DNA from: Nannocystis pusilla
GTDB lineage: Bacteria > Myxococcota_A > Polyangia > Nannocystales > Nannocystaceae
Assembly: GCF_026626665.1 (NCBI RefSeq)
Contig: NZ_JAPNKE010000002.1
Coordinates: forward strand, 3,373,168 to 3,437,167
DNA length: 64,000 nucleotides
Direction of reading: 5' to 3'
Under the pieces are notes generated by a model that saw only the letters and a program-made list of their open reading frames with translations, was not told where the DNA came from and did not search any database. Position 1 is the stretch's first letter. The number at the start of each line of letters is the position of its first letter. The translations under genes were made by a program, and so were the position numbers. Positions 1 to 63,248 of the stretch are shown here, piece by piece.

Positions 1-309
1 ATCAGCACGGCGGCGGGCGTACGGGGCGGGAACAGGCGGACCATCGCGCTCGTCATGGGCGCGCGAATGTACCCCGGCGCCGCCGCCTGACGACCCGTGC
101 GACCGGAGCGCGCGCCGCCGCAGCCGCGGTTCGTTCGCGCGCGCTTTCACACGAGCCGCTCCGGACGCGCCCGTGGCGACGAGCCCATGCGAGCGCGACA
201 GGCGAGGCCTCGCAGCCTCAGGCCCGCGGATGATCGACCTGTCTCTCGAGACATCCCGTTTCTCCCCCTCACCGGCGCCCTCGGACTCGACGAGCTCTCG
301 GGGCAGCAC

Positions 310-560
310 TCGCGCGCGGCGGGTCGGAATTCATCTGTCTCCGGGGACAGCCCAATTCGCACCCGTCACCCGCCCCTCGGACCGGCCGCTCTCTCGGACA
401 CCACTCGCGCGCGAACGCGACGGCTCCGAATTCACCTGTCTCTCGGGACAACACATCCTGCCCCGGCCTCGACGCCCGCGATTCACCTGTCTCTCGGGTC
501 AGCCGTCGTCCCGCGTCACCTTCGCCTCCGAAGCACCTGTCCTCCAGGACATCTCGCCCG
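310..560. repeat. four copies of an about 55-bp unit carrying the TGTCyC-N2-GGGACA palindrome (GAATTCACCTGTCTCTCGGGACA)
   Basis: Units at about 318, 427, 482 and 537. Confidence 0.8.
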
Positions 561-582
561 CTCGCCCCGCCCCCGCCGGCCT

Positions 583-1062
583 TCACGTCAACCGCTTGCG
601 CATCGCCACGCAGCGCTGCGGCGGCCGCGTGCCGGCGTCGCGGGGGTCGCGGCGCCAGCCGAGCCGCTCGTAGAAGCCGACCGCGTTGAGCGTGGCCGAC
701 AGGCGCAGCTCGGCGGCGCCGAACGCCCGCGCCACTCGCTCGACCCGCTGCATCAGCCGCAGGCCGAGCCCGCCGCCGGTCGCGTCCGGGCTGACGTACA
801 TCGCTCGCACCTCGCGGGTCGCCAGGCGGACGGCCGCGAACGCCACCACTCGCCCGGCGCGCTCGGCCACGTAGACCGTCGACGAGCGCAGCATGCGGTC
901 GTACAGCCCCGGGCTCGGCGCGAGCCACTGCTCGATCGCCTGCGGCGAGTAGTGGCCGGCGCACAGCGCTCGCACCGAGGCAGCATGGACCGTGGCGATC
1001 GCGGCGAGGTCAGCAGGCCGCGCCAGCCGGATCGACGGCGCCCGCACCGCATGAGTGTACAC
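583..1062 (-). CDS. GNAT family N-acetyltransferase
   Basis: 159-aa ORF with GNAT-like motifs (VAFAAVRL...MYVSPDATGGGLGLRLM, acetyl-CoA-binding-type segment); clean ORF in a high-GC context. Confidence 0.7.
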   Translation of the reverse strand: MYTHAVRAPSIRLARPADLAAIATVHAASVRALCAGHYSPQAIEQWLAPSPGLYDRMLRSSTVYVAERAGRVVAFAAVRLATREVRAMYVSPDATGGGLGLRLMQRVERVARAFGAAELRLSATLNAVGFYERLGWRRDPRDAGTRPPQRCVAMRKRLT

Positions 1063-1085
1063 TTGGAAGAGGAGTCATTCGCACC

Positions 1086-1796
1086 ATGCATCACCACGGT
1101 ATCCTGGCGCTCGGCGTCGCCGGCCTGCTCCTCGCCGCATGCGGCCCGGGGACCGCGAGCAAGGCCGAGCCCACCCCGGTTCCGAGCAAAGTCGCCGCGC
1201 CCCCGCCTGCCGAGGTCACCCCGGCTCCGCCGCCCGCGCCCGCGCCCGCGCCCACGGGCCCCGGCCAGCTCGACACCGAACTCGTACGCACCGCCGGCAC
1301 GGCCCAGGGTGTCGAGAAGATCAAGGTCGAGCTCGAGAAGGACGGCTCGGTGCGCTACCTGTCCGTCTATCACCAGGACCCCGCCGCCGTGCCCGAGGCG
1401 GTGCGCAAGCAGCTCGAAGCCACCTACCCCGGCGCCAAGGTCCTGCGCTACGAGACCGAACACGTGGTCCCGCACGGCCGCCTGCACGAGGTCGAGGTCG
1501 AGACCGCCGACAAGCAGCAGTGCGAGCTCAGCGCGAGAGCCGACGGCGGCGTCGTCTACACCGAGTGCCACATCGACGCCAAGGCCCTCCCCGAGCCCGT
1601 GCGCGCCGCCTTCGCCAAGGCTCACCCCGGCGTTGCGATCAAGGAGGTCGAGAAGAAGACCCTCACCGGGGCCGGCGACGAGTACGAGATCGAGTTCGAG
1701 GCCGGCGGTCGCCTGCACGAGCTCTACTTCAAGCCCGACGGCACGGTGATCCGCCACGAGCTGGTGGTCCCCGCCGTCATCGAGGTCCCGGCCTAG
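1086..1796 (+). CDS. lipoprotein with two PepSY-like repeats
   Basis: N-terminal lipoprotein signal (LLLAAC lipobox), Pro/Ala-rich linker, then two similar about 70-aa repeats (VEKIKVELEKDGSVRYLSVY... / VAIKEVEKKTLTGAGDEYEIEFEAGGRLHELYF) typical of PepSY-type domains. Confidence 0.65.
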   Translation: MHHHGILALGVAGLLLAACGPGTASKAEPTPVPSKVAAPPPAEVTPAPPPAPAPAPTGPGQLDTELVRTAGTAQGVEKIKVELEKDGSVRYLSVYHQDPAAVPEAVRKQLEATYPGAKVLRYETEHVVPHGRLHEVEVETADKQQCELSARADGGVVYTECHIDAKALPEPVRAAFAKAHPGVAIKEVEKKTLTGAGDEYEIEFEAGGRLHELYFKPDGTVIRHELVVPAVIEVPA

Positions 1797-1996
1797 CCGT
1801 TCGGACATGCCCCAATAGACAGCTCTCGCGCGCCCGGTCGCTCGCGCGCCCCCCGCACCGACGCAGGGGAGCTGTCCTTTGGACCAGCTCGATCTGCGAC
1901 CGCCGCTCCCGGCCACGCGATGCCGGCGACCCAAGCGAGCGCGCCGCCGCGGGGTCTCCCCGGGGCGGCGCACTTGCTCAGTTGTCGACGCAGGAC

Positions 1997-6315: not shown

Positions 6316-6758
6316 CCTCAAAGCCAGCTCACGCCATCGGCGGACCTGGCTTGAAAGCCAGCTCACGCTCGCCGCCGCCGCCCGCCGCCCCACCGGCCGG
6401 CAGTCGTCGACGACACCCCTTCCTCACGCGCACCGACCCGAGCGGACCGTGGAGGACGTGAAGAGGCGCCTGTTCGGCGGCCAACCCTGGCCGTCGAACA
6501 GGCGCCGAGCAACGTGTCCCGAAGGACATCCTCCACCGAGACCGATCGTGTCGGCCCTCACGGCCGCAGCCGTGCGTGGGATCGGCGGACCGACCGAGGC
6601 CGGCGTCCCACCGCGAGGTCCAGTCGGCAATACGTGACGGCCAGCGCTCCGATCTTCGCTGGCCCCCGTCGATTGACCCCGAGCCTCACATGACCCGAAG
6701 GCCATGTCCCAAACTTTTCACCCGCAGCGCCCCAACGGCGCCTCACATGACCTGAAGG

Positions 6759-9126: not shown

Positions 9127-9150
9127 ACGTCGTCCTGGACGAGCGCGGTC

Positions 9151-9188
9151 GGGCATGTCCTTCGGGACATGTCCGGCCGCACATGTTT
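9151..9188. repeat. GGACATGTCC-family palindromic element (REP-like), 2-3 units
   Basis: ggcatgtcc-ttcg-ggacatgtcc-ggccgc-acatgt. Confidence 0.85.
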
Positions 9189-9280
9189 TAAAGTCAGCCC
9201 ACGCGGGCGGCGCGCGCGATACGACCTTTTGACTTGTTCGTCCGCTCGACCCGGATCAGAACTCCGGCGGAGGAACCATC

Positions 9281-9670: not shown

Positions 9671-10060
9671 GAATGCGCTCGCTCGCGCTCGTGCCTGTCG
9701 ACCTGACCCTCGAGCGCGCGCGTGGCCTCACCGCATGTCCACGCGGACATGTTCCTCGGACTGCCGGGGGGCGGAGATACCGCAGCCCATGAACATTCGC
9801 GCTGACTCTCGAGCCTGGTGACGGCTCGGGCTGGCCGAGTCGCTCACGAGCGCAGATGCCTCGGAGGACCGGCTGCCCGCTTACCCGCTTACGGTACGGA
9901 CTCCCCGCCTGGGGTGTCGAGCAGGCGCTCGCCCCCTGGCCGAGCTGTCTGCGCCCCAGGACATGTTCCTCGGACCAGCCCGCCCGGGCGACGCCACCGG
10001 CGACCGAGCCACCACGAGCGGCATCGGCCGCATGGGCCGATGCCGGGCGCGGCCGCGACG

Positions 10061-12964: not shown

Positions 12965-15510
12965 TCAGAAGTCGATGTTGTCCTCGACGCGCAGGTCGAC
13001 CGTGTTCTGCCAGCGCGGCAGCGAACCGCCGTACATCAGGGCATACGCGGCCTGCACCTCGAGCACGCGGCGGGTGTAGTTGGCCGTCTCGCGGAACGGG
13101 ATCTCGGCGATGAAGACGTCGAGCTCGAGCGGGGCCGAGCTCGAGCCCTTGGCGGCCAGCCAGCGGGCGACGTTGAAGGGGCCGCCGTTGTAGCTCGCGT
13201 AAGCCAGCGCGGCCTGGCCGTGGAACTTGTGCAGCAGCTCGGCGAAGTAATAGGCCGACAGGCGCACGTTGTGCTCCTCGTCGAACAGCGCGTCGACGTC
13301 GAACGACTCGCCGAGGCGCGCCGCCAGCTGCTGGCCGGTCCACGGCATGATCTGGATGGCCCCGCGCGCGCCCGACGACGACACCACGTGCCGGCGGAAC
13401 CGCGACTCGGTGTACATCAAGGCCCACAGGTGCGTCGGGTCGAAGGCGCGGGCGGTGGCCTCGCGCTCGACCGCCTCGCGGAACGCCCGCGGGTGCCAGC
13501 GCGCCTTGTACGAGCCGGCCGTCGCAGGCATCAGGCGGCTGCGGCGGTACGGCTCGTCGAGCGCCCACGTCAGCGCGAACAGCCCCTCGCGCAGCGTCTC
13601 GCCGGCCCCGCGCTCGCGCACCAGCTTGCGCGCGTCCTTCGGCAGGCCGAGGCGCGGCTGCTTCCACGTCGACTTCCAGCTCAGCCCCACCACCAGGTCT
13701 TCGTGGCGCGGGACCCATCCGCCGCGATCGAGCCCGTAGAGGCCCTCGTAGGCGTCGACCGCGACCCGCAGCTCGCGGCGCGCCTCGTCGAGCAGGCCGG
13801 CGGCGTGGAGCGCCGCGCCGCGGGCCAGCGCCGGGAAGGCCCAGCCGAACTCGCCGGCCAGCGCCTCGAAGGTCGCGCGCGTGGCCGCGAAGTCGGGCGC
13901 CGGGTTCGCCTCTGCGGGCACCGGGGCGAGCGCCGGCAGCGGCCCCGGATCGGCGCCGATGTCGAGCAGCCGCTGGCGCGCCTGCAGGCCGTAGTAGCCG
14001 AGCGGATCCTCGGCCACGAGCTGTCGCAGCAGGCGCTCGGCCTCGCCGCGATCGGGGGTCTGCTCCTCGCCCGCCTCGCCCGTCGCCTTCGCGCCGGCGC
14101 CGGCGGCCAGCAGCGCGCGGGCGCGGAAGTAGCGAGCGGCGCGGGCCTGGTCGGCCGGCAGGCGGCGCTCCGCGCTGGCGAACGCGGTCGCGGCGGCGTC
14201 GAAGTCGCCGAGGCGGAAGTCGAGCCAGGCGTCGAGCCACAGCCCCTCGCCGCGCTGGCGCTCCTTCGCCGGCGTGCGCCCGAGCAGCTCGCGCGCCTTC
14301 TCGTAGCGGCCGCCGCGGACCGCCTGACGGATCGCCTCCCACAGCGCCGCGCGCCCGGCCCCGCCCTTGCGCCCGGCCTGCTCGGTCCAGATCGCCAGCG
14401 CCTCGTCGTAGCGCCCGGCCTTGTCGAGGCAGCGCAGCAGGTCGCCGCGGAGGTCGCCCGAGGCTGACTTTTGAACAGGACCGAAAGGTCATCCGCGCAC
14501 GCGCCGTAGTCGTGGGCGCGCGAGGCGGTCGACGCCCGCGAGCGCAACGCGACCTCTCGGACATGTCCCGGAGTTTTGGAATCTTCGACCAGGTCCGTCA
14601 GGACCTGGCGCGACAGCGTCATGTCGCGCGAGCGGCGGGCCGCGGCCGCGCGGTCGAGCTGCTCGGCCGCGCTGTAGCGGACCGGGCGCCCGAGCTCCGC
14701 CAGCGCCGCCTCGGCGCCGACGGCCGCCTCGGTGCCGGCGCGCCAGATCGCCACGGTGCGCAGCGCCTTGACCGCGTCGGCGGTCTTGCCCTCGCGCGCG
14801 ATCGCCTGCGCTCGCAGCAGCTCGAGGCCGGCGACGTCCGGGTGCTCGGGGTAATCGCGCAGCACCTCGGTCAGCGCCTTGACTGCGCGGCGCGCCGCCG
14901 CCGGGCCCTCGATCGCCGCCATCGTCCGCGCCCGCGCGACTCGCATCGGCGCCGCGTTGCGCACCGGCTCGTGGTCGATCGCCCGCTCCCACGCCGCTAC
15001 CGCCTGCTTGCGCAGCGCGTCGGCCTCGGCGCTCGGGGCCGACGCCGCCGCCTCGACCAGCGCCTGGGCGTACTCGTGAAGCACCACCTCGTGCGGCCAC
15101 GACTTGGCCGGCCGCCGCTCCGCCGCCAGCTCGGCCAGCGCCTGCACCGCTTCGGCCGGGCGCCCGAGCTCGCGGGCGGCGCGGGCCTTCGTCAGGCGCT
15201 GCACGGAGGCTTGCAGCGAACCGACGGGCGCGGGCTCGTGAGCCAGGCGCGCGAGCGCGGCCTCGGGTTCGCCGCGCGCCAGCAAGGCCGCCGCGGAGAC
15301 CTCCGCAGGCGCCTGGGGCGGCAGGGCGGCTGCCGGTGGGGCCTGGGTCCCTGCGGTCGGCGGGCGGGCGCTGAGGGGGATCTGATTGACCCCCCGATGC
15401 ACGCGCTCGGCTTCGGGGGTGAGCGCCGCGGGTCGACAGGCGAGCAGCGCCGTGGTCGCCATGCACAGCGTCAGGGCAGACATCCGCTTCGGGTGGCTCG
15501 CCGGCGCCAT
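12965..15510 (-). CDS. soluble lytic murein transglycosylase (Slt70-like: signal peptide + TPR-like superhelical domain + SLT catalytic domain)
   Basis: N-terminal signal peptide (MSALTLCMATTALLAC) and Ala/Leu-rich TPR-like repeats. C-terminal SLT motif (ESRFRRHVVSSSGARGAIQIMPWTG...YNGGP). The two halves are in different frames and join at an A4/A5 run near 14467. The joined frame reads ...VLFKKSASGDLRGDLLRCLDKAGRYDEALAIW... Confidence 0.8.
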
Positions 15511-16110: not shown

Positions 16111-16603
16111 CCACGACGGTCTCCCTTCGCGCCGCCGTGAACACGGCCGCGCTCCCGCGCGACGAGGATGACCGTCGCGGCGCGGTCGAGCGTCCTGCGG
16201 AACGAGGCCGATCTTCTCACGATCGCGGCGGCCTCCCCGTCGCGCCCACGTGAATCGCTCGCGCGACGGCCGGCGCGCGACGACCTGTACGCGACGATCG
16301 GCGCGATCGTGGCCTGCCTCGGCCGATCCTCCGCGCGCCGCTCTGGCCGCGAGCCTGGGGCCAGGCGGCACGGGGCGCGCGGGCAAGTGACAGTGGAAGC
16401 GCGCGACATGACCCTACAGACATGTCCGAAGGGCTCCCACGAAATCGCATCAGGCCGGCCCGCCCGCGATTCACCGTAGTGGACGTGGTTGCGGTCGAAT
16501 TCGCCGAAGCGATCGGGGCTCGGGCGAAAATGTGGGCCGTCCGCGTGCGGACCCGAAAATGCACCGAGCGATAATGTTGCGACTGCTGTGCTCGCTTTTC
16601 GGT

Positions 16604-30391: not shown

Positions 30392-30472
30392 GGGACATGT
30401 CCGTATCGACATGTCCTTCATGGCATGGCTGAACAGGCATGTCCTCCGGAGCATGCCCCATCGGACATGCCC
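30392..30472. repeat. GGACATGTCC-family array, six units with strict 15-bp period
   Basis: GGACATGTCCgtatc GACATGTCCttcat GGCATGGCTgaaca GGCATGTCCtccgg AGCATGCCCcatcg GACATGCCC. Lies between the convergent cyclase and kinase genes. Confidence 0.9.
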
Positions 30473-38502: not shown

Positions 38503-38556
38503 GGGACATGTCGCTTGCGACATGTCCCCTGCAGCATGTCTTTGGTGACATGCCGC
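38503..38556. repeat. GGACATGTCC-family array, four units, about 15-bp period
   Basis: GGGACATGTCgcttgc GACATGTCCcctgc AGCATGTCTttggt GACATGCCG. Confidence 0.9.
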
Positions 38557-38574: not shown

Positions 38575-39617
38575 CTACTGGTCGAACAGCTCGAGCAGCG
38601 TGCGCAGCCCCGGCGAGCCGGGCGCCTGCGGCTTGTCGGCCAGCGCGCGGCGGATCTCGAGGTGCGCCGCCGGCAGGATCGACCGCAGCTGCTCGAGCGC
38701 CTTCGGATCGCCGCCCTGGGCCGCTGCCACCTTCGCCTGCACCCGCTCGCGCCCGGGCCCCGCGAGCCGCGGGCCCACGTCCCACGCGGTCACGACCGCG
38801 CCTGCACCGAGGGACATGTCTCCGAGTTCATCGTGGCGCAGCTTCGCCGGCCGTTCGCTCGTCAGCACGTCCAGCCGGCCCAGAGTGAACCGTTGCCCCG
38901 CCCCCAGCGCCGTCGCCCGGCCCGCGCGCAGCAGCGTCACGCCCGCGTCGACCGCCGTCAGAGTCAGCGTCGCCTCGGTCGTCCACGTGCCCGCGTCGAT
39001 CTGCGGATAGTGCCCCTTCGCCGCCGCCAGCAGGCCCTTCGGCACCTTCAAGCCCGAGTAGCCGACCGGCGGCGCCGCCTGCTGCGCCACGCCGTGAACT
39101 CGATCGGCCCCGTCTCGAACTGGCCCTTCAGCAGCGCCTCGCAGGCCCGCAGGTGCCGCTCGATCCGCCCCAGCAGCTCCGCCCGCACAGGCGCGCTCGC
39201 CGGCAGCGGCGCCGCCCGGCGCCACAGGTAGCCGGCCAGCCCCGCGTGGAAGAGCGGCAGCGCCTCCATGCTGCTCAGCAGCGCCGGCAGCTCGGCCATC
39301 GTCTCGCCGCCGCCCGCCTTGCGCGCCTCGACGTGGGCCCGCCAGCGGCTGCGAAACGCCTCGCCTTCGGCGCCGCCGACCGCGTCCGCCAGCGCCTCGA
39401 GGGCGGACGCGACCTGCAACCAGCGCGGGTCGGAGGCCGGCGTCGCCTCCGGCACGGTCACCAGCGCCAGCGCCAATCGCTTGCCCGGCCCGACGTCGAG
39501 CCCGTCGTCGGCGACGAGCCGCGCCCACCGGCCCAGCGCCGCCTCGTCGGCCAGCGGGAACACGTCGGGCCCGAGCGCCGGCGCGGCGCTCTCCGCAGCA
39601 CTTGTCTCCCGGGACAT
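38575..39617 (-). CDS. hypothetical protein
   Basis: About 347 aa with two halves in different frames; no recognised domain. Its ATG lies inside a copy of the GGACATGTCC element. It sits immediately downstream of, and is co-oriented with, the radical SAM gene. Confidence 0.45.
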
Positions 39618-39892
39618 GTCCTCTTCACCCTGCTGCAAAGGACCTGCCCCATTCGACATGTCCTGAGAGCCTTGCCCCGCGCCGGGCGCCGCCCCGTGCC
39701 CGTCCGGCTCCTCGCGCCCGCGCAGCCGGTCGGCGCAGCCCTGCACGAACACGATCAGCAGCGCGAGCAGGCGGATCGCCGGCGCCGCCGCGCTCGAGAG
39801 CAGCGCCACCTGGCCGCGGCGCCAGCGGAGCACCACCGCCGCGGCCAGCGCGAGCGCCACCGCGAACGACCCCAGATCGAGCCACCAGCGCC

Positions 39893-40936
39893 TCACACCG
39901 CCTCCTTGCGGCAGGCGCCGAACGCCTGCTCGCGGCACGGGTTGCCGTTGCGGGCCTGCAGCCAGCACTCGTGGCCGTCCGAGCACTCGCGGTGGCCGGC
40001 GCTGCGGAAGCGCGTGAAGCCGCGGGTCCAGATGTCGCGCAGCAGCCGGTCGCGCACGTTGCCCTCCGACTCGCGCAGGTCGGTGGTGGTGCACGGCAGC
40101 ACCTCGCCGGTGGCCCCGACGACGCAGGAGATCCGGCCGGCCCCGCACAGGAACGGCTGGTCGCGGTAGAAGCGATCGTCGGCGCCGGCGCTGCCCCACT
40201 CGTTGCACAGCTCGACGTGGAACAGCCCGCGCTTGCGGCGGGCGAACGCGGCCACGCGGCGCAGTTGCTCCGGCGTCGGACACAGCGCGGTGTGCTCGGC
40301 CCCGCGGCCCTCGGGGGCGAAGAGATGGAGGCCCCACGAGTCGGCGCCCGAGGCAGCCACGATCGGGAACAGATCGGCCAGGCGGTCGGCGTTCTCGCGC
40401 GTCACCGTCGTGCCCGCCACCACCTCCGGGCAGCCGCACCTTGAGCGTGCGGATGGCAGCCAGCGCCGCCGCGTGACTGCCCTGACGCCCGCGGAACAGG
40501 TCGTGCTGCCGGGCCTCGCCGTCGAGGCTGATCGCCGCCAGCGTGGGCGGGTGACGCTCGAACAGCGACCTGAACTTGGGGACATGTCCCCCGTGCGTGT
40601 GCATCGCCCACTCGAGCCCCTGCGCCCGCGCGTGCGCCACGATCTCGGCGATGTCGCGGCGCAGCAGCAGCTCCCCGCCCGCGATCACGAAGGTCGGCCG
40701 GCCGAGCGCCACCAGCTCGTCGACCACCAGGCGGATCGCCTCCTGCGTCGTCAGCTCGCCCTCGGCCCGCTTGCCCGCGCCCGAGTAGCAATGCGGACAG
40801 CGGAGGTCGCACATCGCGGTGGCGATCCACTGCACCGCGACCGGCCGGCGCACCAGGCGGAGCGCGTGCAGCAGCCGCGTCTCGGTCTCCCAGACCTCGG
40901 GCGCGGCGCGAGCATACAGACGATGAAGCAGGCCCA
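39893..40936 (-). CDS. radical SAM enzyme with C-terminal SPASM domain
   Basis: CDLRCPHCY (CX3CX2C) near the N-terminus. The C-terminal 7-Cys SPASM pattern reads FLCGAG...ISCVV...LPCTT...RECSDGHECW...NPCRE...GACRK. One frame interruption near 40430. Confidence 0.7.
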
Positions 40937-44609: not shown

Positions 44610-44614
44610 GCTGG

Positions 44615-44710
44615 CACCGGGGACATGTCCCTCGGGTCAGCCTGGGAGCCTGGCACTCGGGACATGTTCGCAAGGCCAGCCCCCGGTCGGCCGGCACTCA
44701 GGACATGTCG
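44615..44710. repeat. GGACATGTCC-family array, three units at 40-bp spacing
   Basis: cacCGGGGACATGTCCCtcggg / cactCGGGACATGTTCgcaagg / cactcAGGACATGTCggcgcg. Confidence 0.85.
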
Positions 44711-45711: not shown

Positions 45712-46129
45712 GCTCCCACGCTCGCACGCGTCGCCGCGCCCGGGCAAGTGGCGAAAACGCCAACAAGTGCTCACTTCTCGCCACCGATGCGCCCCGCTCG
45801 AGCCATCGATCGCCATGGCGGAGGCACATGTCCTCGAGGACATCTGATCTCACCGAAGTAAAGCTCCCGGTGCTCGGCTCACCGAGCGCAGACCTCGCTC
45901 GCGCACGTCCGCACCCGGGCCGCCGCGTCCCTGCGTCCCTCGCTACAGCACCAGCACCGACGCCCTCGGCGAGGCTCGCTCGGGGCGCGAGACGAAGGTC
46001 ACCGGCGGCGCTCCGCGATCGACCGCCGAGTCATGAGGCGGCCTGCCAGCGAACCGAGCCGGCGCCGCCCCTCGCGCGCCCGCGCCGGGTGCTCTCGCGT
46101 TTCGCCGCGCGCGGGCTTAGCCTTGACGC

Positions 46130-47244: not shown

Positions 47245-47249
47245 GAGAC

Positions 47250-47400
47250 CGGCTGTCCGTGAGGACAGCCAGGCCTGTCCCCGAGGACATCTCCCCGCAC
47301 CTGTCCGGACGGACAGCCGAGAAGCGGCCCTGTTCACTGTCCGCGAGGACAGCCAGTCCGGCCCGCAGGCACGCGCCGCGCCGCACCTGCCCGTTCGGAC
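47250..47400. repeat. TGTCC-N4-GGACA variant array (four or five hairpin units)
   Basis: ggCTGTCCgtgaGGACAGcc, CTGTCCccgaGGACA, CTGTCCggacGGACAGcc, TGTCCgcgaGGACAGcc. Confidence 0.85.
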
Positions 47401-47403
47401 AGC

Positions 47404-48384: not shown

Positions 48385-49652
48385 ATGTCCGGACGCGACT
48401 CCCACTCCGAAGACCCGCGCGGGCCCCGGCCGCTGCGCCCGCACGTCGGGCTCGCCGAGCCGAGCGACGACCCCGGCCTCGAGCTGGGCGCCGACATCGC
48501 CGATCCCGGCCTCTCCGGCCTCTTGCGCCGCGGGGTCAAGGCCGCGATCGCGCGCTGGGCCGTACTGCGACGACCTGCCGCCGAGTGGCCGCGCCCGCAG
48601 GACGAGGCCCGCCACGCCTGGGACGGCCGGCCGCACTTCGCCGAGGACTTCGTGTTCGTCGGCGTGCAGCCCGAGCTCGCCGTGCTCGCGCGCCTCGAGT
48701 GGTTGCCCGGCCGCGACGCCCACCGCGTCTGGCTCACCCTCTTCACGCCCACCGCGATCTACTGCCTCCCCGGCGGCCAGGCGCTGCTGCGCGGCGACGG
48801 CGAGCGCGGCTGGTCGGTCGGCGGCCTCAGCTTCGACTGCGTCGAGCCGCTGCGCACCTGGACCCTGCGTTACCGCGGCGCCCTGCACGTGCACGACCCG
48901 CGCGGCCGACCGCTGCGCCCCGCCGGCGACGCCCCCGCCGAGTCGATCGAGGCCCGCCTCGACCTCACCTTCCTCGCCGGCCTCTTGCCGTTCGTCCCCG
49001 GCACCGACGACGACCCCGACCTGCTCGCGCGCCAGCTCGGCGCCGCCGCCTGGGACACTCGCCTGCTCCGCGCCGTGCGCCGCCACCCGCTCCGCGGCTA
49101 CGTCCAGGCCGGCGATCTACACGGCACGATCACCCTCGGCCGCGACCTGCGGGCCTTCGGCGGCGCCGCCCTGCGCGTCCACAACTGGGGCGTGCGCGAC
49201 TGGGGCGCCAGCGACGCCGCCATGCAGTGCTTCGCCACGCTCGGCCCGCTGCGGACGTGGGTGCACACCGCCCGTTTCCCGTGGGTGAGCCTGTCCGGCG
49301 GCTTCGTCCAGCGGCCCGGCGGCGTCGTCCCGATCCGCGACCTCGGGGTCACGCAGGAGCGCCGCCCCGGCCGCGCGCCCGCTCGCACCGGCCTGGCCGT
49401 CGAGGCCCCCGGCGGACCGCTCGCCCTCGAGGCCGAGACCGTCGCCGAGCTCCCGCTCGACATGGACGGCCGCGGCCACCTCGACATCGCCCTCGTCCGC
49501 GTCCACGCGGGCGGCGAGCGCCCACCCCCGCCCGCGCCGAGGGCCCCCGCCTCGTCGCCGGCCCCGCGCGCCCGCCCGAGGAGTCGCACGGCTGGGGCCT
49601 CTGCTTCACCCAGCGCCGCCTGCTCCCGCGCCCCACCCCGCGCACCGGCTGA
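48385..49652 (+). CDS. hypothetical protein (C-terminus uncertain)
   Basis: Well-formed about 380-aa region with no recognised motifs. The 3' end runs into a repeat array and a C/G homopolymer tract. Confidence 0.4.
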
Positions 49653-49884
49653 CCTGTCCGTTCGAGCATGTCCGCCGGACCATGCCCGGGCCGCGCGGCT
49701 CGGCCGCTCCATCCGGCTCGTCCACCCGATGACCTGCTCATTCGGGCCTGTCGGCCGGACTGCGCCCAGGCCGCGCAGGTCGGCCGCTCGAATCCTGCGC
49801 CGCCTGTGCTCGCTGGACCGCTCCACTCGAGCGGCCCCGGGTAGCCGTCGCTATTCCGGTGACTTCCACGAAGCGACTGCCCTT

Positions 49885-49990
49885 CGATGGCATGACCATT
49901 CGGACATGTCCTTTTGACCATGCCCCATCAGGAATGTCTTTCCAACCATGCCCGAAAGAGCATGTCCATGAGCACATGCCCTCGGCGCCA
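49885..49990. repeat. GGACATGTCC-family array, seven units with 15-bp period
   Basis: GGACATGTCCtttt GACCATGCCCcatca GGAATGTCTttcca ACCATGCCCgaaag AGCATGTCCatgag CACATGCCC. A second, looser array lies at 49650-49760. Confidence 0.9.
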
Positions 49991-60614: not shown

Positions 60615-61481
60615 GTGGCCACTTTCGACCCCGAGCTCCGACTCGTCCTCTCGCTCGCCCGCGAGGCCGGCGCCATCGCCCTGGCCTATCAGACAGGTGG
60701 TGCCGACGTCATGCAGGCCCAGGACAAGCCTGACGACGCCGGCCCGGTCACTCGCGCGGACACCGAGATCAACGCGCGCCTGGTCGCTGCGCTGCGCGCG
60801 GCCTTCCCCGGCGACGCGGTCGTCGCCGAGGAGTCCGCCGACGACGCCGCTGCAGCCGCCGACGTCTCGCGCTGCTGGTACGTCGACCCGATCGACGGCA
60901 CCGCCGAGTACGCCCGCGGCGAGACGTGCTGGGCGATCCAGATCGGCCTCTGCATCGGCGGCGAACCCGTCCTCGGCGTCGTCTACGAGGCCGGCGCGGC
61001 GCGCCTCTCGTGGGGCATCTGCACGCCCGATCGGCGTGAAGCGTTCGTCATCGACGACAGCGGCGCGGCCACCCCGCTGCGTGCCAGCGGTCGCTCGCTC
61101 GCCGAGCTGCGCCTCGTCAGCAGCCTGAGTCACGCCTCCCCGAAGACCCTCGAGGTCATGCGGGTCCTCGGCATCCCGCCCGAGCGCAACCTCCGGCTCG
61201 GCTCCGTCGGCGTGAAGGTGGGCACCATCGCCCGCGGCGAGGCCGACCTTTATGTCCACCCGCGCAGCGGCACCAAGCTGTGGGACACCTGCGCGCCGTG
61301 GGCCCTGCTGCGCGCCGTCGGCGGCGTCATCACCGATCTGTGGGGCCAACCACTGATCTACGACCCGCTTCGGCTCGGCCACGACCATGGGCTGGTCGCC
61401 TCGCACGGCGCGCACCACGACGACATCCTCGCGGCCATCCGTCCGCTCGTCGACACCTGGTATCGCTCGCCGCACGCATGA
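60615..61481 (+). CDS. inositol-monophosphatase-family phosphatase (CysQ / 3'(2'),5'-bisphosphate nucleotidase-like)
   Basis: Motifs EES, WYVDPIDGT, WDTCA. Confidence 0.85.
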   Translation: MATFDPELRLVLSLAREAGAIALAYQTGGADVMQAQDKPDDAGPVTRADTEINARLVAALRAAFPGDAVVAEESADDAAAAADVSRCWYVDPIDGTAEYARGETCWAIQIGLCIGGEPVLGVVYEAGAARLSWGICTPDRREAFVIDDSGAATPLRASGRSLAELRLVSSLSHASPKTLEVMRVLGIPPERNLRLGSVGVKVGTIARGEADLYVHPRSGTKLWDTCAPWALLRAVGGVITDLWGQPLIYDPLRLGHDHGLVASHGAHHDDILAAIRPLVDTWYRSPHA

Positions 61482-61560
61482 CCTTGCGGACAGGTGTACT
61501 GGCACATGTTCTACCGGACAGGTGTCCTTGGGCCTGTCCGCGCGGACAGGCCCGCAGGCG
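61480..61560. repeat. GGACA/TGTCC-family variant array
   Basis: GGACAGGTGT...CACATGTTC...GGACAGGTGTCC...CCTGTCCgcgcGGACAGG. Confidence 0.8.
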
Positions 61561-61566
61561 CCGACC

Positions 61567-62673
61567 TCAGCGCGACTTTGCGACGATGACGATCGCCGCG
61601 ATCACCGCGGCCACCAGCAGCACGGTCAGCACGATCTTGGCCACGCTCCACGGCCGCTCGCCCGCGACCTCGCCGGTGCGGGCGTTGACGATGAAGCGGA
61701 ACACCTTCTCTTTGTAGCGGAAGCTCGAGATCCACAGCGGCAGGAGCACGTGCTTGCACTTCACGTCCGCGTGGCGGACCTGCATCGACAGGATCTGCTG
61801 CACGTCGCCGCCGATGTCGCTGCGGATGGCCGAGCGGATCTCCGGCTGCATGCGCTCGTCGGCGACCTGGAACCCGTCCTCGAGCCCGATCCGGTAGCGC
61901 TCCGCGATGAACCCGCTGAGGTAGCCGGCTTCGAAGCCGCGCAGGTTGTGGAGGTCCCACGGCTCGAGCTTCTCGATCAGCGGCCGCGGCAGCGACTGCG
62001 ACGCGCACACCAGCACGTCGTCGAAGCCGACGTGCACCGTCCCGCTCGCCGGGCGCCAGCGCGTCTTCTGCACCTGACGCGTCTGCCGGTTGCCCTGCGC
62101 GTCGGTGTACGACTCCGTCACGTAGTAGTGATCGCCGCGCAGCCCCTTGTAGCGCGTCGTCGTCTGCGAGTCGTAGGTCCAGTACGGCAGGTAGACGCCG
62201 TCGATCCCGTGGACCTGCGCCAGCCGCTTCAGGTCGTTCGGCGCGAACCATAGCTTGCGGACCCACTGCTGGAACGCCTCGCGCGCCTTCGGTCCGTCGA
62301 TGCCGAACGGCAGCAGCGACTCGGGCGGTACGATCTCGCCGAGCTCCTTGACGTCCATCACCACCGGCGCGCCGCAGAACGCACAGCGACCCGCCTGCCC
62401 GGCCAGCATCGCCTGCGCCCCGCAGCCCTCGCACTGCACGCTGTGGCCCCCGAGCGTCGACGCCGGCGCGCGGCCGATCCGCTGCAACATGTCCTCGAAG
62501 TCATGTTCGAGGATCGACCGCTCGCCCTGGATCGCCTGCGTGTGACCGCAGTGGTTGCAGCGAAGCTGGTCCGATCCGGGCGCGTACTCGAGGGCCGAGC
62601 CGCACTGCTCGCAGGGGAACGTCAGCTTGCCCTCACCGAGGGCCACGTTGGTTTCGGGGTCGCGCTCGGCCAT
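61567..62673 (-). CDS. membrane-anchored protein with two zinc-ribbon motifs
   Basis: CEQCG...CNHCGH and CEGCG...CAFCG near the N-terminus; C-terminal TM helix (IVLTVLLVAAVIAAIVIV). Confidence 0.55.
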   Translation of the reverse strand: MAERDPETNVALGEGKLTFPCEQCGSALEYAPGSDQLRCNHCGHTQAIQGERSILEHDFEDMLQRIGRAPASTLGGHSVQCEGCGAQAMLAGQAGRCAFCGAPVVMDVKELGEIVPPESLLPFGIDGPKAREAFQQWVRKLWFAPNDLKRLAQVHGIDGVYLPYWTYDSQTTTRYKGLRGDHYYVTESYTDAQGNRQTRQVQKTRWRPASGTVHVGFDDVLVCASQSLPRPLIEKLEPWDLHNLRGFEAGYLSGFIAERYRIGLEDGFQVADERMQPEIRSAIRSDIGGDVQQILSMQVRHADVKCKHVLLPLWISSFRYKEKVFRFIVNARTGEVAGERPWSVAKIVLTVLLVAAVIAAIVIVAKSR

Positions 62674-62799
62674 CGGGCGCGAGTGTACCCGAGCGCCCCG
62701 GTCGCTTGCGACGGCCCGGACCGCGCCGCCCGCCGGTGCGCGATCGTGCCTCCATGACCCGCCTCCGGCAGGCCCGCCTCGCTCGCGCGGCTCGAGCCT

Positions 62800-63105
62800 G
62801 TGGCCTCCGCTCGCGCCGCCGAGACCGTCCAGGAGCTCGAGGGACAGGTCTCGATGGACAGCCTCGGCCAATTCTTCGTCGCCTTCGACGTCCCTGCCGG
62901 CACGCGAGCGATCGAGATCGCCCACGACGACTGTCGGACGACAACATCCTCGACTGGGGCCTCGTCGACCCGCAGGGTGTGTTCCGCGGCCGGGGCGGCG
63001 GCAACGAGGTGAACGCCGTCGTCGTCGAGGCCGCCACCTCGCTCCTACGTCCCCCGCCCGATCGCCGCCGGCACGTGGAGCGTCGTCGTCGGGGCAAGGC
63101 CTTCA
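62800..63105 (+). pseudogene. possible short gene or gene remnant split over three frames
   Basis: Protein-like segments LEGQVSMDSLGQFFVAFDVPAGTRAIEIAHDD, ILDWGLVDPQGVFRGRGGGNEVNAVVVEAATS and SYVPRPIAAGTWSVVVGA follow one another in different frames. Confidence 0.2.
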
Positions 63106-63248
63106 CCGGAGTGACTACCGCAAGCCCCAGGAGGCGAGCCCGCCGCCGCCGCCGAAACCCAGCAGACCGACACGACTCGAAGGACATGTTCTTCCAGTCA
63201 TGTCCCTTCAATCATCCACGAAACCTGTCCCATCGACCAGCCTGGCCG

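What the first reader, a model, noticed from the sequence alone, without database searches (positions are those of the whole stretch)
250..63240. Pervasive GGACA/TGTCC palindromic element, often in tandem arrays with a strict 15-bp period, concentrated between convergent gene ends
**Core element and abundance.** The perfect 10-mer palindrome GGACATGTCC occurs at least 7 times (at 9165, 14558, 30393, 39612, 40579, 44623 and 49896). The chance expectation for a given 10-mer in 64 kb is about 0.06. Roughly 25 one- or two-mismatch variants add to this (GACATGTCC, GGCATGTCC, AGCATGCCC, GGACATGTTC, and others). A second arrangement uses the same half-sites as TGTCC-N4-GGACA hairpins.

**Array structure.** Many occurrences are tandem arrays with a 10-bp core plus a 5-bp spacer. 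There are six units at 30392-30472, seven at 49885-49990, four at 38503-38556, and two or three at 9151-9188. Adjacent cores can pair, so the RNA could adopt several alternative hairpins.

**Placement.** Almost every convergent 3' intergenic gap in the window carries one (1800, 6500, 9730/9957, 30400, 38500, 44650, 47300, 49650-49990, 61500, 63200). A few sit in 5' or divergent regions (9151, 45826, 39608). At least four copies are embedded in coding sequence:
- the Slt gene (DSKTPGHVRE at 14553),
- the large kinase (FDHVRQGMSE at 33551),
- the radical SAM gene (HTHGGHVPKF at 40575),
- the start codon of the gene at 39617.

**Interpretation.** The placement pattern resembles REP/BIME-type elements, acting as terminators or mRNA 3' stabilisers. 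The half-site regularity would also fit a binding site for an abundant DNA-binding protein.

**ORF-track signature.** The element explains the recurring TCPxGH/Q peptides in spurious ORFs (RTCPNGHA, RACPSGHV, TCPRGHL, RTCPFDHAPSGMSFQPCPKEHVHEHMPSAPG).
Basis: seen in the sequence. Interest (0 to 1): 0.75.

Follow-up and report, generated by a model that had tools for sequence, protein, structure and literature searches.

The report
Nannocystis 14-bp palindromic repeat arrays
This Nannocystis pusilla chromosome segment is peppered with a genus-specific 10-bp palindrome (GGRCATGYCC) stacked head-to-tail every 14 bp right after stop codons, an apparently undescribed REP/BIME-like repeat family that most likely forms hairpins at mRNA 3' ends.

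Summary
The unit is a 10-bp core GGRCATGYCC plus a 4-bp A/T-rich spacer, which can also be read as abutting TGYCC-N4-GGRCA mini-hairpins.

GGACATGTCC occurs 7 times (0.04 expected). CATG-CATG distances peak at 14, 28 and 42 bp, and never at 15.

The window is Nannocystis pusilla. A three-unit pattern scan of 185,579 species genomes hit almost only Nannocystis.

In 84 Nannocystis/Nannocystaceae loci plus the window, arrays of 3 or more units sit in 66 of 107 convergent gaps but only 5 of 87 divergent gaps. They start a median of 8 nt from a stop codon, often overlapping it.

Arrays hold their positions across four genomes yet change far faster than synonymous sites. The exact phase and the CATG are kept throughout.

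They fold strongly on both strands, and the mRNA strand is enriched in G and U at the two degenerate positions. There is no Watson-Crick covariation and no U-tract.

Copies inside genes come as frame-preserving 3 or 6 units with foreign-looking codons.

Best reading: a selfish, REP/BIME-like palindromic element tolerated or co-opted as bidirectional 3'-end hairpins. It is not a member of the REP family proper. Its maintenance mechanism is unknown.

The parts
30393..30472 (.). Six-unit array filling the convergent gap between the adenylate/guanylate cyclase gene (29130-30356 +) and the cNMP-binding Ser/Thr kinase gene (from 30483, -). It lies 36 nt after one stop and 10 nt before the other.
   Evidence: Orthologous arrays of 5-6 units occur in L103, L104 and L105. 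Folding z = -2.9 (+) and -4.2 (-).
49888..49981 (.). Seven-unit array in the convergent gap 49652-50047.
   Evidence: Folding z = -3.5 and -3.6. The orthologous gap in N. bainbridge (L062) and in N. pusilla CP185339 (L103) carries 6-7 units in a different arrangement.
49650..49691 (.). Three-unit array whose first, degenerate unit TGACCTGTCC contains the TGA stop (49650-49652) of the 421-aa gene. A decayed copy follows at about 49722-49763 (roughly 72-bp duplication).
   Evidence: The PGAP gene end in L103 (20353) lies on the same TGACC.
38504..38555 (.). Four-unit array between PurT (37291-38487 +) and the 442-aa gene (from 38575, -). It lies 16 nt and 19 nt from the two stops.
   Evidence: In the four-genome alignment the cores are conserved and the spacers are not. 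Folding z = -5.0 and -7.4.
9151..9188 (.). Three-unit array 24 nt after the stop of the upstream + gene (tandem gap). Units 1 and 2 form a 16-bp stem (9145-9180) followed by ACATGTTTTA.
   Evidence: z = -7.2. It is flagged as terminator-like.
9731..9754 (.). Two-unit array in the convergent gap 9670-10061 upstream of the MetRS 3' end. A further single unit lies at 9959-9968.
6686..6709 (.). Two-unit array in the convergent gap 6315-6759. A free-standing TGTCC-cgaa-GGACA hairpin lies at 6515-6528.
1803..1812 (.). Single unit GGACATGCCC, 6 nt after the stop of the + gene that ends at 1796.
16404..16427 (.). Two-unit array in the repeat-rich non-coding stretch 15511-16960.
33553..33590 (+). Three units (the third decayed) inside the 1228-aa kinase gene (about 33213-36899), read in frame as DHVRQGMSERTG.
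   Evidence: Gene limits come from PGAP calls in L103-L105. The sequence is identical or near-identical in all four genomes.
39598..39677 (-). Six degenerate units lying inside the N-terminal part of the 438/442-aa gene as called by PGAP in the orthologues. Local coding signal is weak, so this could instead be an internal non-coding spacer.
40580..40589 (-). Single perfect unit inside the radical SAM/SPASM gene (about 39888-40934, -).
   Evidence: Orthologous copies occur in L104 and L105, with gene calls.
14559..14568 (-). Single perfect unit inside the 848-aa SLT transglycosylase gene (12965-15511, -). In the window this gene is broken by a 1-bp homopolymer deletion.
38798..38821 (-). Two units (one decayed) inside the 442-aa gene, conserved in all four genomes.
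44621..44710 (.). Composite element in the FadL/AraC convergent gap. Three units at 44621, 44660 and 44701 are separated by about 30-nt GC-rich hairpin-forming linkers.
   Evidence: The same layout with different linkers occurs in L103 and L105.
45824..45847 (.). Two units (the second decayed) in the divergent AraC/arginase gap, one of the few promoter-side copies.
   Evidence: (conserved in L103 and L105).
47254..47401 (.). Five free-standing TGYCC-N4-GGACA hairpins separated by about 8-36 nt, spanning nearly all of the arginase/TPR convergent gap (47245-47403).
61474..61553 (.). Array of five to six units, several with CAGG or CCTG in place of CATG, in the convergent gap 61481-61567. The first unit ACGCATGACC contains the TGA stop (61479-61481).
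63182..63205 (.). Two-unit array about 40 nt downstream of the stop of the - gene 63249-63662 (tandem gap).
237..450 (.). A 96-bp tandem repeat (2.2 copies) whose copies each carry CTGTC-N6-GACAG, i.e. TGTCT-N4-GGACA-type hairpins of the same half-site family. A free-standing hairpin lies at 538-551.

Best explanation
This is a Nannocystis-specific family of short interspersed palindromic repeats.

**Anatomy.** The unit is 14 bp: a core GGRCATGYCC plus 4 A/T-rich bases. It can equally be read as a TGYCC-N4-GGRCA mini-hairpin abutting its neighbour at CA|TG. Units are stacked head-to-tail in arrays of 2-7 without any phase slip.

**Behaviour.** It behaves like E. coli REP/BIME elements. It is very abundant, roughly one array per 4 kb in the window, which extrapolates to thousands per 12-Mb genome. 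It is non-autonomous. It sits almost entirely just 3' of stop codons and often fills the whole gap between convergent genes.

**Proposed mechanism (inferred).** The arrays are transcribed into the 3' ends of one or both flanking mRNAs. There, any two neighbouring units pair into a 10-bp stem with a 4-nt loop. Several alternative registers are possible. This gives a compact, orientation-independent stack of hairpins that stops or pauses RNA polymerase, blocks 3' exonucleases, or both. Canonical hairpin-plus-U terminators were no commoner than chance in the 20 kb of this genome that was scanned. Because the first hairpin begins within a ribosome footprint of the stop codon, it may also affect translation termination, as reported for E. 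coli REPs lying within 15 nt of a stop.

**Origin (inferred).** The family originated and persists as selfish DNA. Some sequence-specific process keeps CATG and the 14-bp quantum while unit number, spacers and R/Y positions turn over quickly. Selection then leaves copies where they are harmless or useful: at gene 3' ends, or as 3n-unit in-frame insertions in tolerant protein loops.

**Shown versus inferred.** Shown: the anatomy, abundance, taxonomic range, placement, folding potential, strand bias, conservation of position with sequence hypervariability, and frame-preserving copies inside genes. Inferred: the termination or stabilisation role, and the propagation mechanism.
For: **Not chance.**
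- Enrichment and strict 14-bp periodicity.
- The window is N. pusilla.
- 84 of 102 genome hits to the three-unit pattern are in Nannocystis or Nannocystaceae.
- The other hits are mostly one-off perfect minisatellites.
- Density is near background in more distant relatives.
- There were no viral hits.

**Placement.**
- Of 134 arrays with 3 or more units, 66 are in convergent gaps, 43 in tandem gaps, 5 in divergent gaps and 11 in genes.
- The available gaps number 107 convergent, 263 tandem and 87 divergent.
- The median distance to the nearest stop is 8 nt in convergent gaps.
- In tandem gaps arrays lie a median 27 nt after the upstream stop and 130 nt before the next start.
- The stop codon is in register with the array: 23 of 122 are in one of the 14 phases.
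- A 7-unit array ends 7 nt from the 3' end of a tRNA-Ala gene, so the link is to transcript ends and not only to translation.

**Folding.**
- z-scores are -2.9 to -7.4 on both strands, formed by neighbouring units pairing.

**RNA-level signal.**
- In tandem gaps, oriented to the mRNA strand, the degenerate core positions are G/U-rich.
- Position 3 (R) is A 87 / G 76 and position 8 (Y) is T 112 / C 50 (p = 0.005).
- The spacers and the rest of the gap are strand-symmetric.

**Scarcity of ordinary terminators.**
- There were 6 sites against 5.2 expected in 20 kb, and one of the two good ones is an array.
- A/T runs of 7 nt or more are 8-fold enriched next to arrays.

**Retention.**
- Arrays sit at the same gaps in four genomes.
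- The same holds in L062 versus the window and in L007 versus L020.

**Selfish or rapid-turnover side.**
- PurT four-fold sites differ by 6-16% between genomes, yet array spacers are only 15-62% identical.
- Array-bearing gaps are 26-74% identical, against 64-90% for divergent gaps.
- Copies inside genes are 3 or 6 units long and have atypical AT-rich codons.

**Literature.**
- E. coli REPs cluster 1-20 nt after ORFs and stall ribosomes when within 15 nt of the stop (PMC12306157).
Against: - There is no Watson-Crick covariation between the R and Y positions, within units or between neighbours.
- Real arrays fold no better than arrays assembled from randomly drawn units (-0.480 versus -0.458 kcal/mol/nt, p = 0.08). 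Pairing looks like a by-product of the consensus rather than a separately selected trait.
- There is no general U-tract after arrays, so they are not canonical intrinsic terminators.
- Unit counts show no preference for even numbers.
- Arrays of 3-6 units sit inside expressed-looking genes, so an array is not an obligatory terminator.
- The invariant CATG, the exact 14-bp spacing and the symmetric flank rule (spacer never A...T, 0 of 220) are what a sequence-specific protein would impose, not what hairpin stability alone would impose.
- No transcript data were available.
- Gene contexts for the 84 loci rest on my own GC3-based gene caller.
Confidence: 0.5

Rival explanations
1. The arrays are double-stranded DNA binding platforms. 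A Nannocystis-specific dimeric protein, such as a nucleoid-associated protein, a ribbon-helix-helix or HTH factor, or a topoisomerase cofactor, recognises GGRCA/TGYCC half-sites. It polymerises along the 14-bp-phased sites. Possible roles are a bidirectional transcription roadblock or a supercoil/cohesion anchor between convergent genes.
For: - CATG is about 95-99% conserved, while the flanking positions are only about 70% conserved.
- Spacing is exact: 14 bp 228 times against 13 bp once and 15 bp never.
- The half-sites vary independently, with no base-pair covariation.
- A symmetric negative flank rule holds: no T before the core and no A after it, and the A...T combination occurs 0 times in 220.
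- Both half-site arrangements, N0 and N4, are enriched and no others are.
- Single units that cannot fold alone are also over-represented: 6-8 lie in coding sequence. I estimated about 1.4 expected by scaling the shuffle mean to the coding fraction.
- Neighbouring units are not co-adapted for folding.
Against: - The mRNA-sense G/U bias at the degenerate positions is not expected for a symmetric duplex site.
- Placement is tied to the upstream stop codon (0-30 nt) rather than merely to the gap.
- Sites turn over extremely fast, which is unusual for conserved binding sites.
- No candidate protein has been identified.
- No gene family recurs next to arrays.
Confidence: 0.22
2. The element is purely selfish or mutational DNA with no cellular role. 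Arrays arise and expand by a mechanism that acts in 14-bp quanta, such as slippage, template switching in quasi-palindromes, or an unknown transposase. They simply accumulate where they do least harm: just past stop codons, and in tolerant protein loops when the length is a multiple of 3.
For: - Arrays are hypervariable relative to synonymous sites and to promoter gaps.
- Unit-number distribution is geometric-like: 53, 45, 33, 14 and 3 arrays with 3, 4, 5, 6 and 7 units.
- Copies inside genes are limited to 3 or 6 units and carry foreign-looking codons.
- Arrays are depleted from divergent, promoter-containing gaps, as expected from purifying selection alone.
- There is no covariation and no folding co-adaptation.
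- Density is high within one clade and near background outside it.
Against: - Every orthologous array-bearing gap examined keeps an array across species separated by 6-16% synonymous divergence, and across a pair at 83% nucleotide identity, despite rapid internal change.
- Adjacent units are rarely recent duplicates. Spacers differ and same-position R/Y states are uncorrelated, so simple slippage does not explain the arrays.
- There is a sense-strand G/U bias.
- Arrays are associated with A/T runs.
Confidence: 0.2
3. The pattern is a compositional coincidence, an assembly artefact, or the by-product of overlapping coding constraints.
For: The window does contain single-base homopolymer indels relative to Illumina contigs.
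Against: - No shuffle reached the observed counts.
- The same arrays are present in independent assemblies, including Illumina-based contigs at 99.98% identity, and in at least eight Nannocystis assemblies.
- Most copies are non-coding.
Confidence: 0.01

Closest known systems
REP / BIME elements of Enterobacteria and Pseudomonas (repetitive extragenic palindromes and their clustered form)
   Same: - They are high-copy, non-autonomous and extragenic, and they lie mostly just downstream of stop codons.
- They cluster with regular spacing and can form hairpins in mRNA 3' ends.
- Their regions are hot spots of change between strains.
- Their proposed roles are termination, mRNA stabilisation and protein binding (abstracts of PMC3733652 and PMC2817692; stop-codon proximity in PMC12306157).
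   Different: - The unit here is a 10-bp core in a 14-bp period, not a 20-40-bp self-folding palindrome.
- There is no GTAG or CGTC tag. The conserved tetranucleotide is CATG, at the centre of the core and at the junction between mini-hairpins.
- Units are directly abutted with an invariant 4-bp spacer.
- No RAYT gene has been linked to it.
- It is restricted to one myxobacterial genus.
Rickettsia palindromic elements (RPEs), selfish palindromic repeats inserted in frame into protein genes (from my own knowledge)
   Same: A minority of copies lie in frame inside conserved protein genes. Examples are the AMP-binding domain of feruloyl-CoA synthase and a Ser/Thr kinase. They add or replace short peptide loops.
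   Different: - RPEs are about 100-150 bp single elements, not arrays of 14-bp units.
- Here most copies are intergenic.
- In the one case checked, the host loop kept its length.
Highly iterated palindrome HIP1 (GCGATCGC) of cyanobacteria (from my own knowledge)
   Same: It is a short, lineage-specific palindrome that is hugely over-represented, including some copies in coding sequence, with the cause unresolved.
   Different: HIP1 is dispersed singly and is common within genes. The Nannocystis motif is degenerate at two positions, is mostly intergenic, and is organised in phased tandem arrays at gene 3' ends.
Inverted pairs of DNA uptake sequences (DUS/USS) in Neisseria and Haemophilus that double as terminators (from my own knowledge)
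   Same: A roughly 10-bp genus-specific motif is frequently paired downstream of genes, so that the transcript forms a terminator-like hairpin.
   Different: DUS/USS are non-palindromic and occur as single inverted pairs. Their abundance is explained by transformation bias. No link to competence is known or testable here, and the phased multi-unit arrays have no counterpart.
Operator or centromere arrays bound by ribbon-helix-helix proteins (met boxes for MetJ, heptad arrays for omega, parH for ParG) (from my own knowledge)
   Same: Short (pseudo)palindromic boxes are repeated head-to-tail in exact phase, sometimes with A/T-rich 4-bp spacers. Box sequence is conserved without base-pair covariation.
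   Different: Those arrays occur at one or a few loci per replicon and in promoters or centromeres. They do not occur thousands of times at gene 3' ends.

Membership tests
REP / BIME | High-copy, extragenic, concentrated near gene 3' ends | tested here: met
   There are about 16 arrays or hairpin clusters in the 64-kb window. Convergent gaps carry an array in 66 of 107 cases, divergent gaps in 5 of 87. The median distance to a stop is 8 nt.
REP / BIME | The unit is a 20-40-bp imperfect palindrome that folds on its own | tested here: not met
   The core is 10 bp and the period 14 bp. A stable stem needs two neighbouring units. The alternative is a 5-bp-stem mini-hairpin.
REP / BIME | Conserved GTAG or CGTC tetranucleotide at one end of the palindrome (PMC3733652) | tested here: not met
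   The logo of 560 units shows no such tag. The conserved tetranucleotide is the central or junction CATG, and array flanks are not conserved.
REP / BIME | A cognate RAYT (Y1/HUH) transposase gene flanked by the repeats (PMC2817692) | not testable with these tools
   Whole Nannocystis genomes could not be scanned. Among 542 ORFs in the array-bearing loci, no small gene family recurs next to arrays. That sample is under 2% of the genomes.
REP / BIME | BIME-type clustering: regularly spaced units in alternating orientation | tested here: inconclusive
   Spacing is perfectly regular. Because each unit is itself a palindrome, alternating and direct orientation cannot be told apart.
Intrinsic (Rho-independent) terminator | G+C-rich hairpin | tested here: met
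   Stems of 10-16 bp, about -0.48 kcal/mol/nt, z = -2.9 to -7.4 on both strands.
Intrinsic (Rho-independent) terminator | U-tract immediately 3' of the hairpin | tested here: not met
   In sense-oriented tandem gaps the 14 nt after arrays contain T 110, A 100, C 206 and G 186. Only about 10% of arrays lie within 40 nt of an A/T run of 7 nt or more, which is still 8-fold enriched. One window array (9145-9180) passes the hairpin-plus-T scan.
Simple minisatellite / VNTR made by slippage | Neighbouring units are near-identical copies, spacer included | tested here: not met
   In Nannocystis the spacers of adjacent units differ, and same-position R/Y states are uncorrelated. The non-Nannocystis hits are true perfect minisatellites.
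Highly iterated palindrome (HIP1-like) | A short palindrome dispersed singly through coding and non-coding DNA | tested here: not met
   Most copies are in phased intergenic arrays. Single copies in coding sequence exist but are a minority: 6-8 of the 28 sites with at most 1 mismatch.
Any curated RNA family (Rfam 15) | Match at or above the gathering score | tested here: not met
   There were 0 matches in the whole window on both strands.
RPE-like in-frame palindromic insertions | Copies inside conserved protein-coding genes that keep the reading frame | tested here: met
   - L015 1864-1901 (3 units) lies inside the single AMP-binding domain match, residues 67-444.
- L049 3812-3849 (3 units) and L056 496-575 (6 units) have GC3 of 0.92-0.99 in the same frame on both sides.
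- The window copy at 33553-33590 is 3 units.
- Caveat: the feruloyl-CoA synthase loop has the same length in homologues that lack the motif.

The most novel reading that the evidence does not exclude
The arrays are written and rewritten by a dedicated sequence-specific machinery that works in 14-bp quanta at CA|TG junctions. One possibility is an HUH/Y1-type or other nuclease-ligase that moves 14-nt TGYCC-N4-GGRCA mini-hairpins. Each inserted module would recreate its own target site. That would make this the smallest self-targeting mobile DNA module described.

This single idea would explain several observations together:
- the exact phase and the invariant CATG;
- spacers that are unrelated between neighbouring units;
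- the absence of covariation;
- turnover faster than synonymous change;
- length-neutral, frame-preserving copies inside genes.

A close variant is that a Nannocystis-specific DNA-binding protein polymerises on the arrays and terminates convergent transcription as a roadblock.
Probability: 0.15. Interest if true: 0.85.

Novelty: new variant of a known kind. Interest (0 to 1): 0.6.

Why it matters
Nannocystis genomes (11-13 Mb, 72% G+C) are mined for natural products, yet how their genes end is essentially unknown.

If these arrays are the main 3'-end signal, three things follow:
- They mark transcription-unit boundaries that annotation pipelines miss.
- They explain spurious ORFs and C-terminal mis-calls.
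- They give compact bidirectional terminator or insulator parts for myxobacterial synthetic biology.

As genome biology, this is a clean natural case in which a short palindrome keeps its sequence and phase through very rapid turnover without base-pair covariation. That makes the long-standing question of what creates and maintains REP-like repeats directly testable in a new lineage.

The 3n-unit copies inside genes add a second example, besides Rickettsia RPEs, of palindromic repeats shaping protein loops.

The hypervariable but position-stable arrays would also make excellent strain-typing markers.

Tried and rejected
- **15-bp period.** Rejected by the distance spectra.
- **Known RNA family.** Rfam gave no hit at gathering score.
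- **Widespread motif.** The genome-collection scan shows it is essentially confined to Nannocystis. The other hits are unrelated perfect 14-bp minisatellites or different TGACATGTCA arrays. There were no viral hits.
- **Covariation support for RNA hairpins.** I looked within units, across the spacer, and for the 10-bp inter-unit stem. None was found. A unit-shuffling fold test was also negative.
- **U-tracts after arrays.** Absent in general.
- **Even-number preference of units.** Absent.
- **A mobilising gene next to arrays.** Clustering 542 neighbouring ORFs found only the usual large myxobacterial paralogue families.
- **Simple insertion in feruloyl-CoA synthase.** Rejected, because homologues lacking the motif have a loop of the same length.
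- **Exact-protein look-up of the window's RND pump.** It failed, probably because of a wrong start or a frameshift. Look-ups of the window's own PurT and MetRS returned only short Illumina contigs. These were still useful for exposing two 1-bp assembly indels.
- **Literature.** Searches for Nannocystis or myxobacterial REP-like repeats and for GGACATGTCC in bacteria found nothing relevant.
- **First gene caller.** My first GC3 ORF filter mis-called several window genes. I corrected them with PGAP calls from orthologous loci.

Full report

Yes, with one correction.
- GGACATGTCC occurs 7 times in the 64-kb window, against 0.04 expected from dinucleotide-preserving shuffles.
- Sites with at most 1 mismatch number 28, against 1.7 expected.
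- Sites with at most 2 mismatches number 71.
- A two-unit pattern (RRCATGYC-N6-RRCATGYC) matches 10 times counting both strands, and a three-unit pattern 3 times. Both have 0.00 expected.

The period is 14 bp, not 15.
- In the window, CATG-CATG distances are 14 (23 pairs), 28 (11), 42 (8), 56 (5) and 15 (0).
- In about 795 kb of Nannocystis DNA, neighbouring good cores are 14 bp apart 228 times, 13 bp once and 15 bp never.

- It also occurs free-standing: 10 in the window, five of them in a row at 47254-47401.
- Only N4 is enriched, at 18 occurrences. Every other spacing from 0 to 20 nt gives 0-4.

**2. What and whose is it?**

The window is 72% G+C.
- Its PurT protein is 100% identical to a Nannocystis pusilla protein.
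- Two Illumina contigs match the window at 99.96-99.98% identity.

I scanned one genome per species (185,579 species) for three phased units.
- 84 of them are in Nannocystis: N. bainbridge, N. exedens, N. punicea, N. radixulma, N. sp. RBIL2, Nannocystis MAGs and one Nannocystaceae MAG.
- The 18 others are mostly perfect one-off 14-bp minisatellites, or different TGACATGTCA arrays.
- 21-kb loci around PurT from more distant relatives show only background-level single units and no phased pairs: a Nannocystis sp. MAG at 83% PurT identity, a metagenomic relative, and a Myxococcales MAG.
- A viral-contig scan found nothing.
- Rfam has no match.
- The searchable literature has nothing on such repeats in Nannocystis or other myxobacteria.

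**3. Anatomy**

A logo was built from 560 units in 134 arrays of the Nannocystis/Nannocystaceae loci plus the window.
- The core frequencies are G .68, G .72, R (A .55 / G .37), C, A, T, G, Y (T .53 / C .41), C .77, C .66.
- The 4-nt spacer is about 55-60% A+T in a 28% A+T genome.
- CATG is the best-conserved part. About 95% of internal units have it, allowing for the fact that I detected arrays through CATG chains.

Spacers are diverse, with no favoured tetraloop. They obey one symmetric rule: the first base is rarely A and the last rarely T. The A...T combination is seen 0 times in 220.

Array sizes among those with at least 3 units are 53, 45, 33, 14 and 3 for 3, 4, 5, 6 and 7 units. There is no preference for even numbers. 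Array flanks are not conserved.

There are mosaic forms:
- At 44621-44710, three units alternate with about 30-nt GC-rich hairpin linkers. The same layout with different linkers occurs in two other genomes.
- At 237-450, the same half-site hairpin is embedded in a 96-bp tandem repeat.

**4. Placement**

I used a GC3-based gene caller, which called 82% of the sequence as coding. It was applied to the 84 Nannocystis/Nannocystaceae loci plus the window.
- The 134 arrays of at least 3 units lie as follows: 66 convergent, 43 tandem, 5 divergent, 11 in genes and 9 at locus edges.
- The gaps available are 107 convergent, 263 tandem and 87 divergent.
- Per gap, that is 0.62, 0.16 and 0.06.

Arrays abut stop codons.
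- The median distance to the nearer stop is 8 nt in convergent gaps, and many arrays fill the entire gap.
- In tandem gaps they lie a median 27 nt after the upstream stop and 130 nt before the next start.
- The stop codon is in register with the array. The commonest layout is cTGAcc-NNNN-GGRCATG, in which TGA sits on the TGY of a degenerate half-unit. This phase accounts for 23 of 122 cases, out of 14 possible phases.
- Window examples are TGACCTGTCC at 49650 and ACGCATGACC at 61474.

PGAP gene calls in three orthologous loci agree with this picture.

One 7-unit array ends 7 nt from the 3' end of a tRNA-Ala gene. The association is therefore with transcript ends, not only with translation.

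The site near 63200 is in a tandem gap.

**5. Evidence bearing on mechanism**

(a) *Folding.* Arrays fold strongly on either strand, with neighbouring units making 10-16-bp stems and 4-nt loops. z-scores are -2.9 to -7.4. The mosaic and spaced forms give z of -1.6 to -3.2.

(b) *No compensatory evolution.*
- The R and Y positions are independent between the partners of every plausible stem.
- Within a unit they are anti-correlated. GGACATGCCC and GGGCATGTCC total 292 against 233 expected, at the expense of the perfect palindromes.
- Real arrays fold no better than arrays assembled from randomly drawn units (-0.480 versus -0.458 kcal/mol/nt, p = 0.08).

(c) *An RNA-strand signal.*
- In 57 tandem-gap arrays oriented to the upstream mRNA, the two degenerate positions are shifted toward G and U.
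- The counts are A 87 / G 76 at R versus T 112 / C 50 at Y (p = 0.005).
- Spacers and the rest of the gap are strand-symmetric.
- G and U are the promiscuous pairing bases. This is what selection for pairing in any register would produce without pairwise covariation.

(d) *No general U-tract* follows arrays.
- Canonical hairpin-plus-T sites are at chance level in the first 20 kb (6 versus 5.2 expected). One of the two convincing ones is the 9145-9180 array.
- A/T runs of 7 nt or more, often TTTTTAAAAA, are rare in these genomes but 8-fold enriched within 40 bp of arrays (13 versus 1.6 expected).

(e) *Evolution.* Arrays keep their positions across N. pusilla (two strains), N. sp. ILAH1 and N. 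punicea.
- The cyclase/kinase gap has 6, 5, 6 and 5 units, and the PurT gap 4, 2, 4 and 4.
- The same holds between the window and N. bainbridge, and between N. radixulma and N. sp. RBIL2 at 83% nucleotide identity.

Internally they change very fast.
- PurT four-fold sites differ by 6-7% (16% to N. punicea), yet spacers are only 15-62% identical and cores 70-85%.
- Compared with the two closer genomes, array-bearing convergent gaps are 31-74% identical and divergent promoter gaps 81-90%.
- Adjacent units are seldom recent duplicates.

(f) *Copies inside genes.* These are real and come in frame-preserving sizes.
- L015 1864-1901: three units (42 nt) inside the AMP-binding domain of feruloyl-CoA synthase.
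- L049 3812-3849: three units.
- L056 496-575: six units.
- Window 33553-33590: three units in the large kinase.
- Window 39598-39677: six degenerate units in the 442-aa gene as called by PGAP.

The three checked in detail (L015, L049, L056) have AT-rich codons that are foreign to a genome with about 95% GC3. In feruloyl-CoA synthase, homologues without the motif have a loop of exactly the same length. The motif therefore replaced sequence rather than simply adding to it.

(g) *No recurring neighbour gene.* No gene family recurs next to arrays among 542 neighbouring ORFs.

**6. Interpretation**

The best-supported reading has confidence of about 0.5. This is a REP/BIME-like selfish palindromic repeat family specific to Nannocystis, tolerated and probably co-opted at gene 3' ends.

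In transcripts it would provide compact, orientation-independent stacks of hairpins. These would act as bidirectional termination or pause sites, as 3'-exonuclease barriers, or both. It may also influence translation termination, because the first stem starts within a ribosome footprint of the stop. In E. coli, REPs within 15 nt of a stop stall ribosomes (PMC12306157, which cites the original study).

The termination or stabilisation step is inferred, not shown.

Base pairing does not explain several features: the invariant CATG, the exact 14-bp quantum, the flank rule, and retention of the motif through turnover faster than synonymous change. These call for a sequence-specific factor. That could be a protein binding the duplex or the hairpins (rival, about 0.22), or an enzyme or templated process that builds arrays in 14-bp modules (the novel case, about 0.15).

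A purely selfish, function-less element is the other live rival (about 0.2). It is weakened by the universal retention of arrays at orthologous gaps and by the strand bias. Chance or artefact is excluded.

**7. Comparison with known systems**

Functionally and ecologically the element resembles REP/BIME. It fails the family's defining sequence features:
- the unit is too short;
- there is no GTAG or CGTC tag;
- RAYT linkage is untestable here.

It is therefore not filed as a REP.

It is not a slippage minisatellite, because spacers differ between neighbouring units. It is not a canonical intrinsic terminator, because there is no U-tract. It is not HIP1-like, because it is not singly dispersed.

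It shares the in-frame behaviour inside genes with Rickettsia RPEs, and the phased-box architecture with ribbon-helix-helix operator arrays.

I rate it a new variant of a known kind.

**8. Caveats**
- Gene contexts outside the PGAP-annotated loci rest on my own caller.
- The loci were chosen for having at least one three-unit match. This does not bias gap type, but it does inflate per-gap frequencies.
- The per-genome abundance (thousands) is an extrapolation from the window.
- The window carries at least two 1-bp homopolymer deletions that break real genes. ORF-based statements about it need care for that reason.

Noticed in passing
window about 14468 and about 39080: Relative to Illumina-derived contigs of the same strain (99.96-99.98% identical), the window lacks one base at each of two sites, one of them an A5 run. 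This breaks the 848-aa SLT transglycosylase gene (12965-15511, -) and the 442-aa gene downstream of the radical SAM gene. These are probably long-read assembly indels. A similar frameshift probably explains why the 421-aa gene appears to run on to 49917 instead of stopping at 49652.
   Followed up: partly
L004 6471, L013 1084, L027 5584, L097 2799 and others; window 9181-9190: A/T runs of 7 nt or more, often palindromic (TTTTTAAAAA), are very rare in these 72% G+C genomes: 111 in 731 kb. They are 8-fold enriched within 40 bp of arrays (13 versus 1.6 expected). They may be a bidirectional U-tract partner for the array hairpins.
   Followed up: partly
L037 6606-6699 and 6706-6786: One of the longest Nannocystis arrays found (7 units) ends 7 nt from the 3' end of a tRNA-Ala gene. 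In L028, two arrays lie within 300 nt downstream of a tRNA-Ser gene.
   Followed up: partly
L015 1864-1901; L049 3812-3849; L056 496-575; window 33553-33590: Arrays inside protein-coding genes come as 3 or 6 units (42 or 84 nt), which preserves the frame. They encode D-M...T-C...H-V/A-type peptides, and the three locus copies use AT-rich codons atypical for the genome. In feruloyl-CoA synthase the motif occupies a variable loop that has the same length in homologues without it.
   Followed up: partly
Nannocystis/Nannocystaceae loci and window (546 units): Within a unit the two degenerate positions are anti-correlated. The asymmetric forms GGACATGCCC and GGGCATGTCC are in excess (292 versus 233 expected). 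The perfect 6-bp palindromes ACATGT and GCATGC are depleted. Possible causes are restriction avoidance or palindrome instability. This is unexplained.
   Followed up: no
window 15643-15804, 15891-16063, 36909-37058, 37115-37182: Large, nearly perfect tandem repeats (70-, 63-, 79- and 23-bp periods, 87-97% identity) lie in two non-coding stretches: upstream of the SLT gene, and between the large kinase and PurT. They are unrelated in sequence to the 14-bp element.
   Followed up: no
window about 38575-40934 compared with L103 11405-11719: The radical SAM/SPASM gene and the adjacent 438/442-aa gene are present in the window, N. punicea and N. sp. ILAH1. In N. pusilla CP185339 they are replaced by a 104-aa remnant. 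This is a presence/absence polymorphism of a possible peptide-modification cassette within the species.
   Followed up: no
L096 483, L089 3876, L073 1657, L065 4686: Outside Nannocystis, a few genomes carry 14-bp-phased TGACATGTCA-type boxes with differing spacers: Roseovarius and Rhodobacteraceae MAGs, Hamadaea, and a Mycobacterium MAG. These are unlike the perfect minisatellites among the other hits and may be operator arrays of unrelated regulators.
   Followed up: no
window 49650-49790: The first array after the 421-aa gene, together with about 30 nt of its flank, is duplicated in tandem (about 72 bp), and the second copy is decayed. N. bainbridge and the other N. pusilla strain instead have a single 6-7-unit array at the stop. 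This is an example of how quickly these gaps are remodelled.
   Followed up: partly
window 18723-18794 (-): ARAGORN calls a tRNA-Thr (CGT) inside the M4 metallopeptidase coding region (16960-19026, -). It is probably a false positive.
   Followed up: no
window 538, 33264, 47302, 47388: Free-standing TGYCC-N4-GGACA hairpins are often preceded by CACC (CACCTGTCC...). This hints at a slightly longer conserved foot when the hairpin is not abutted to another unit.
   Followed up: no
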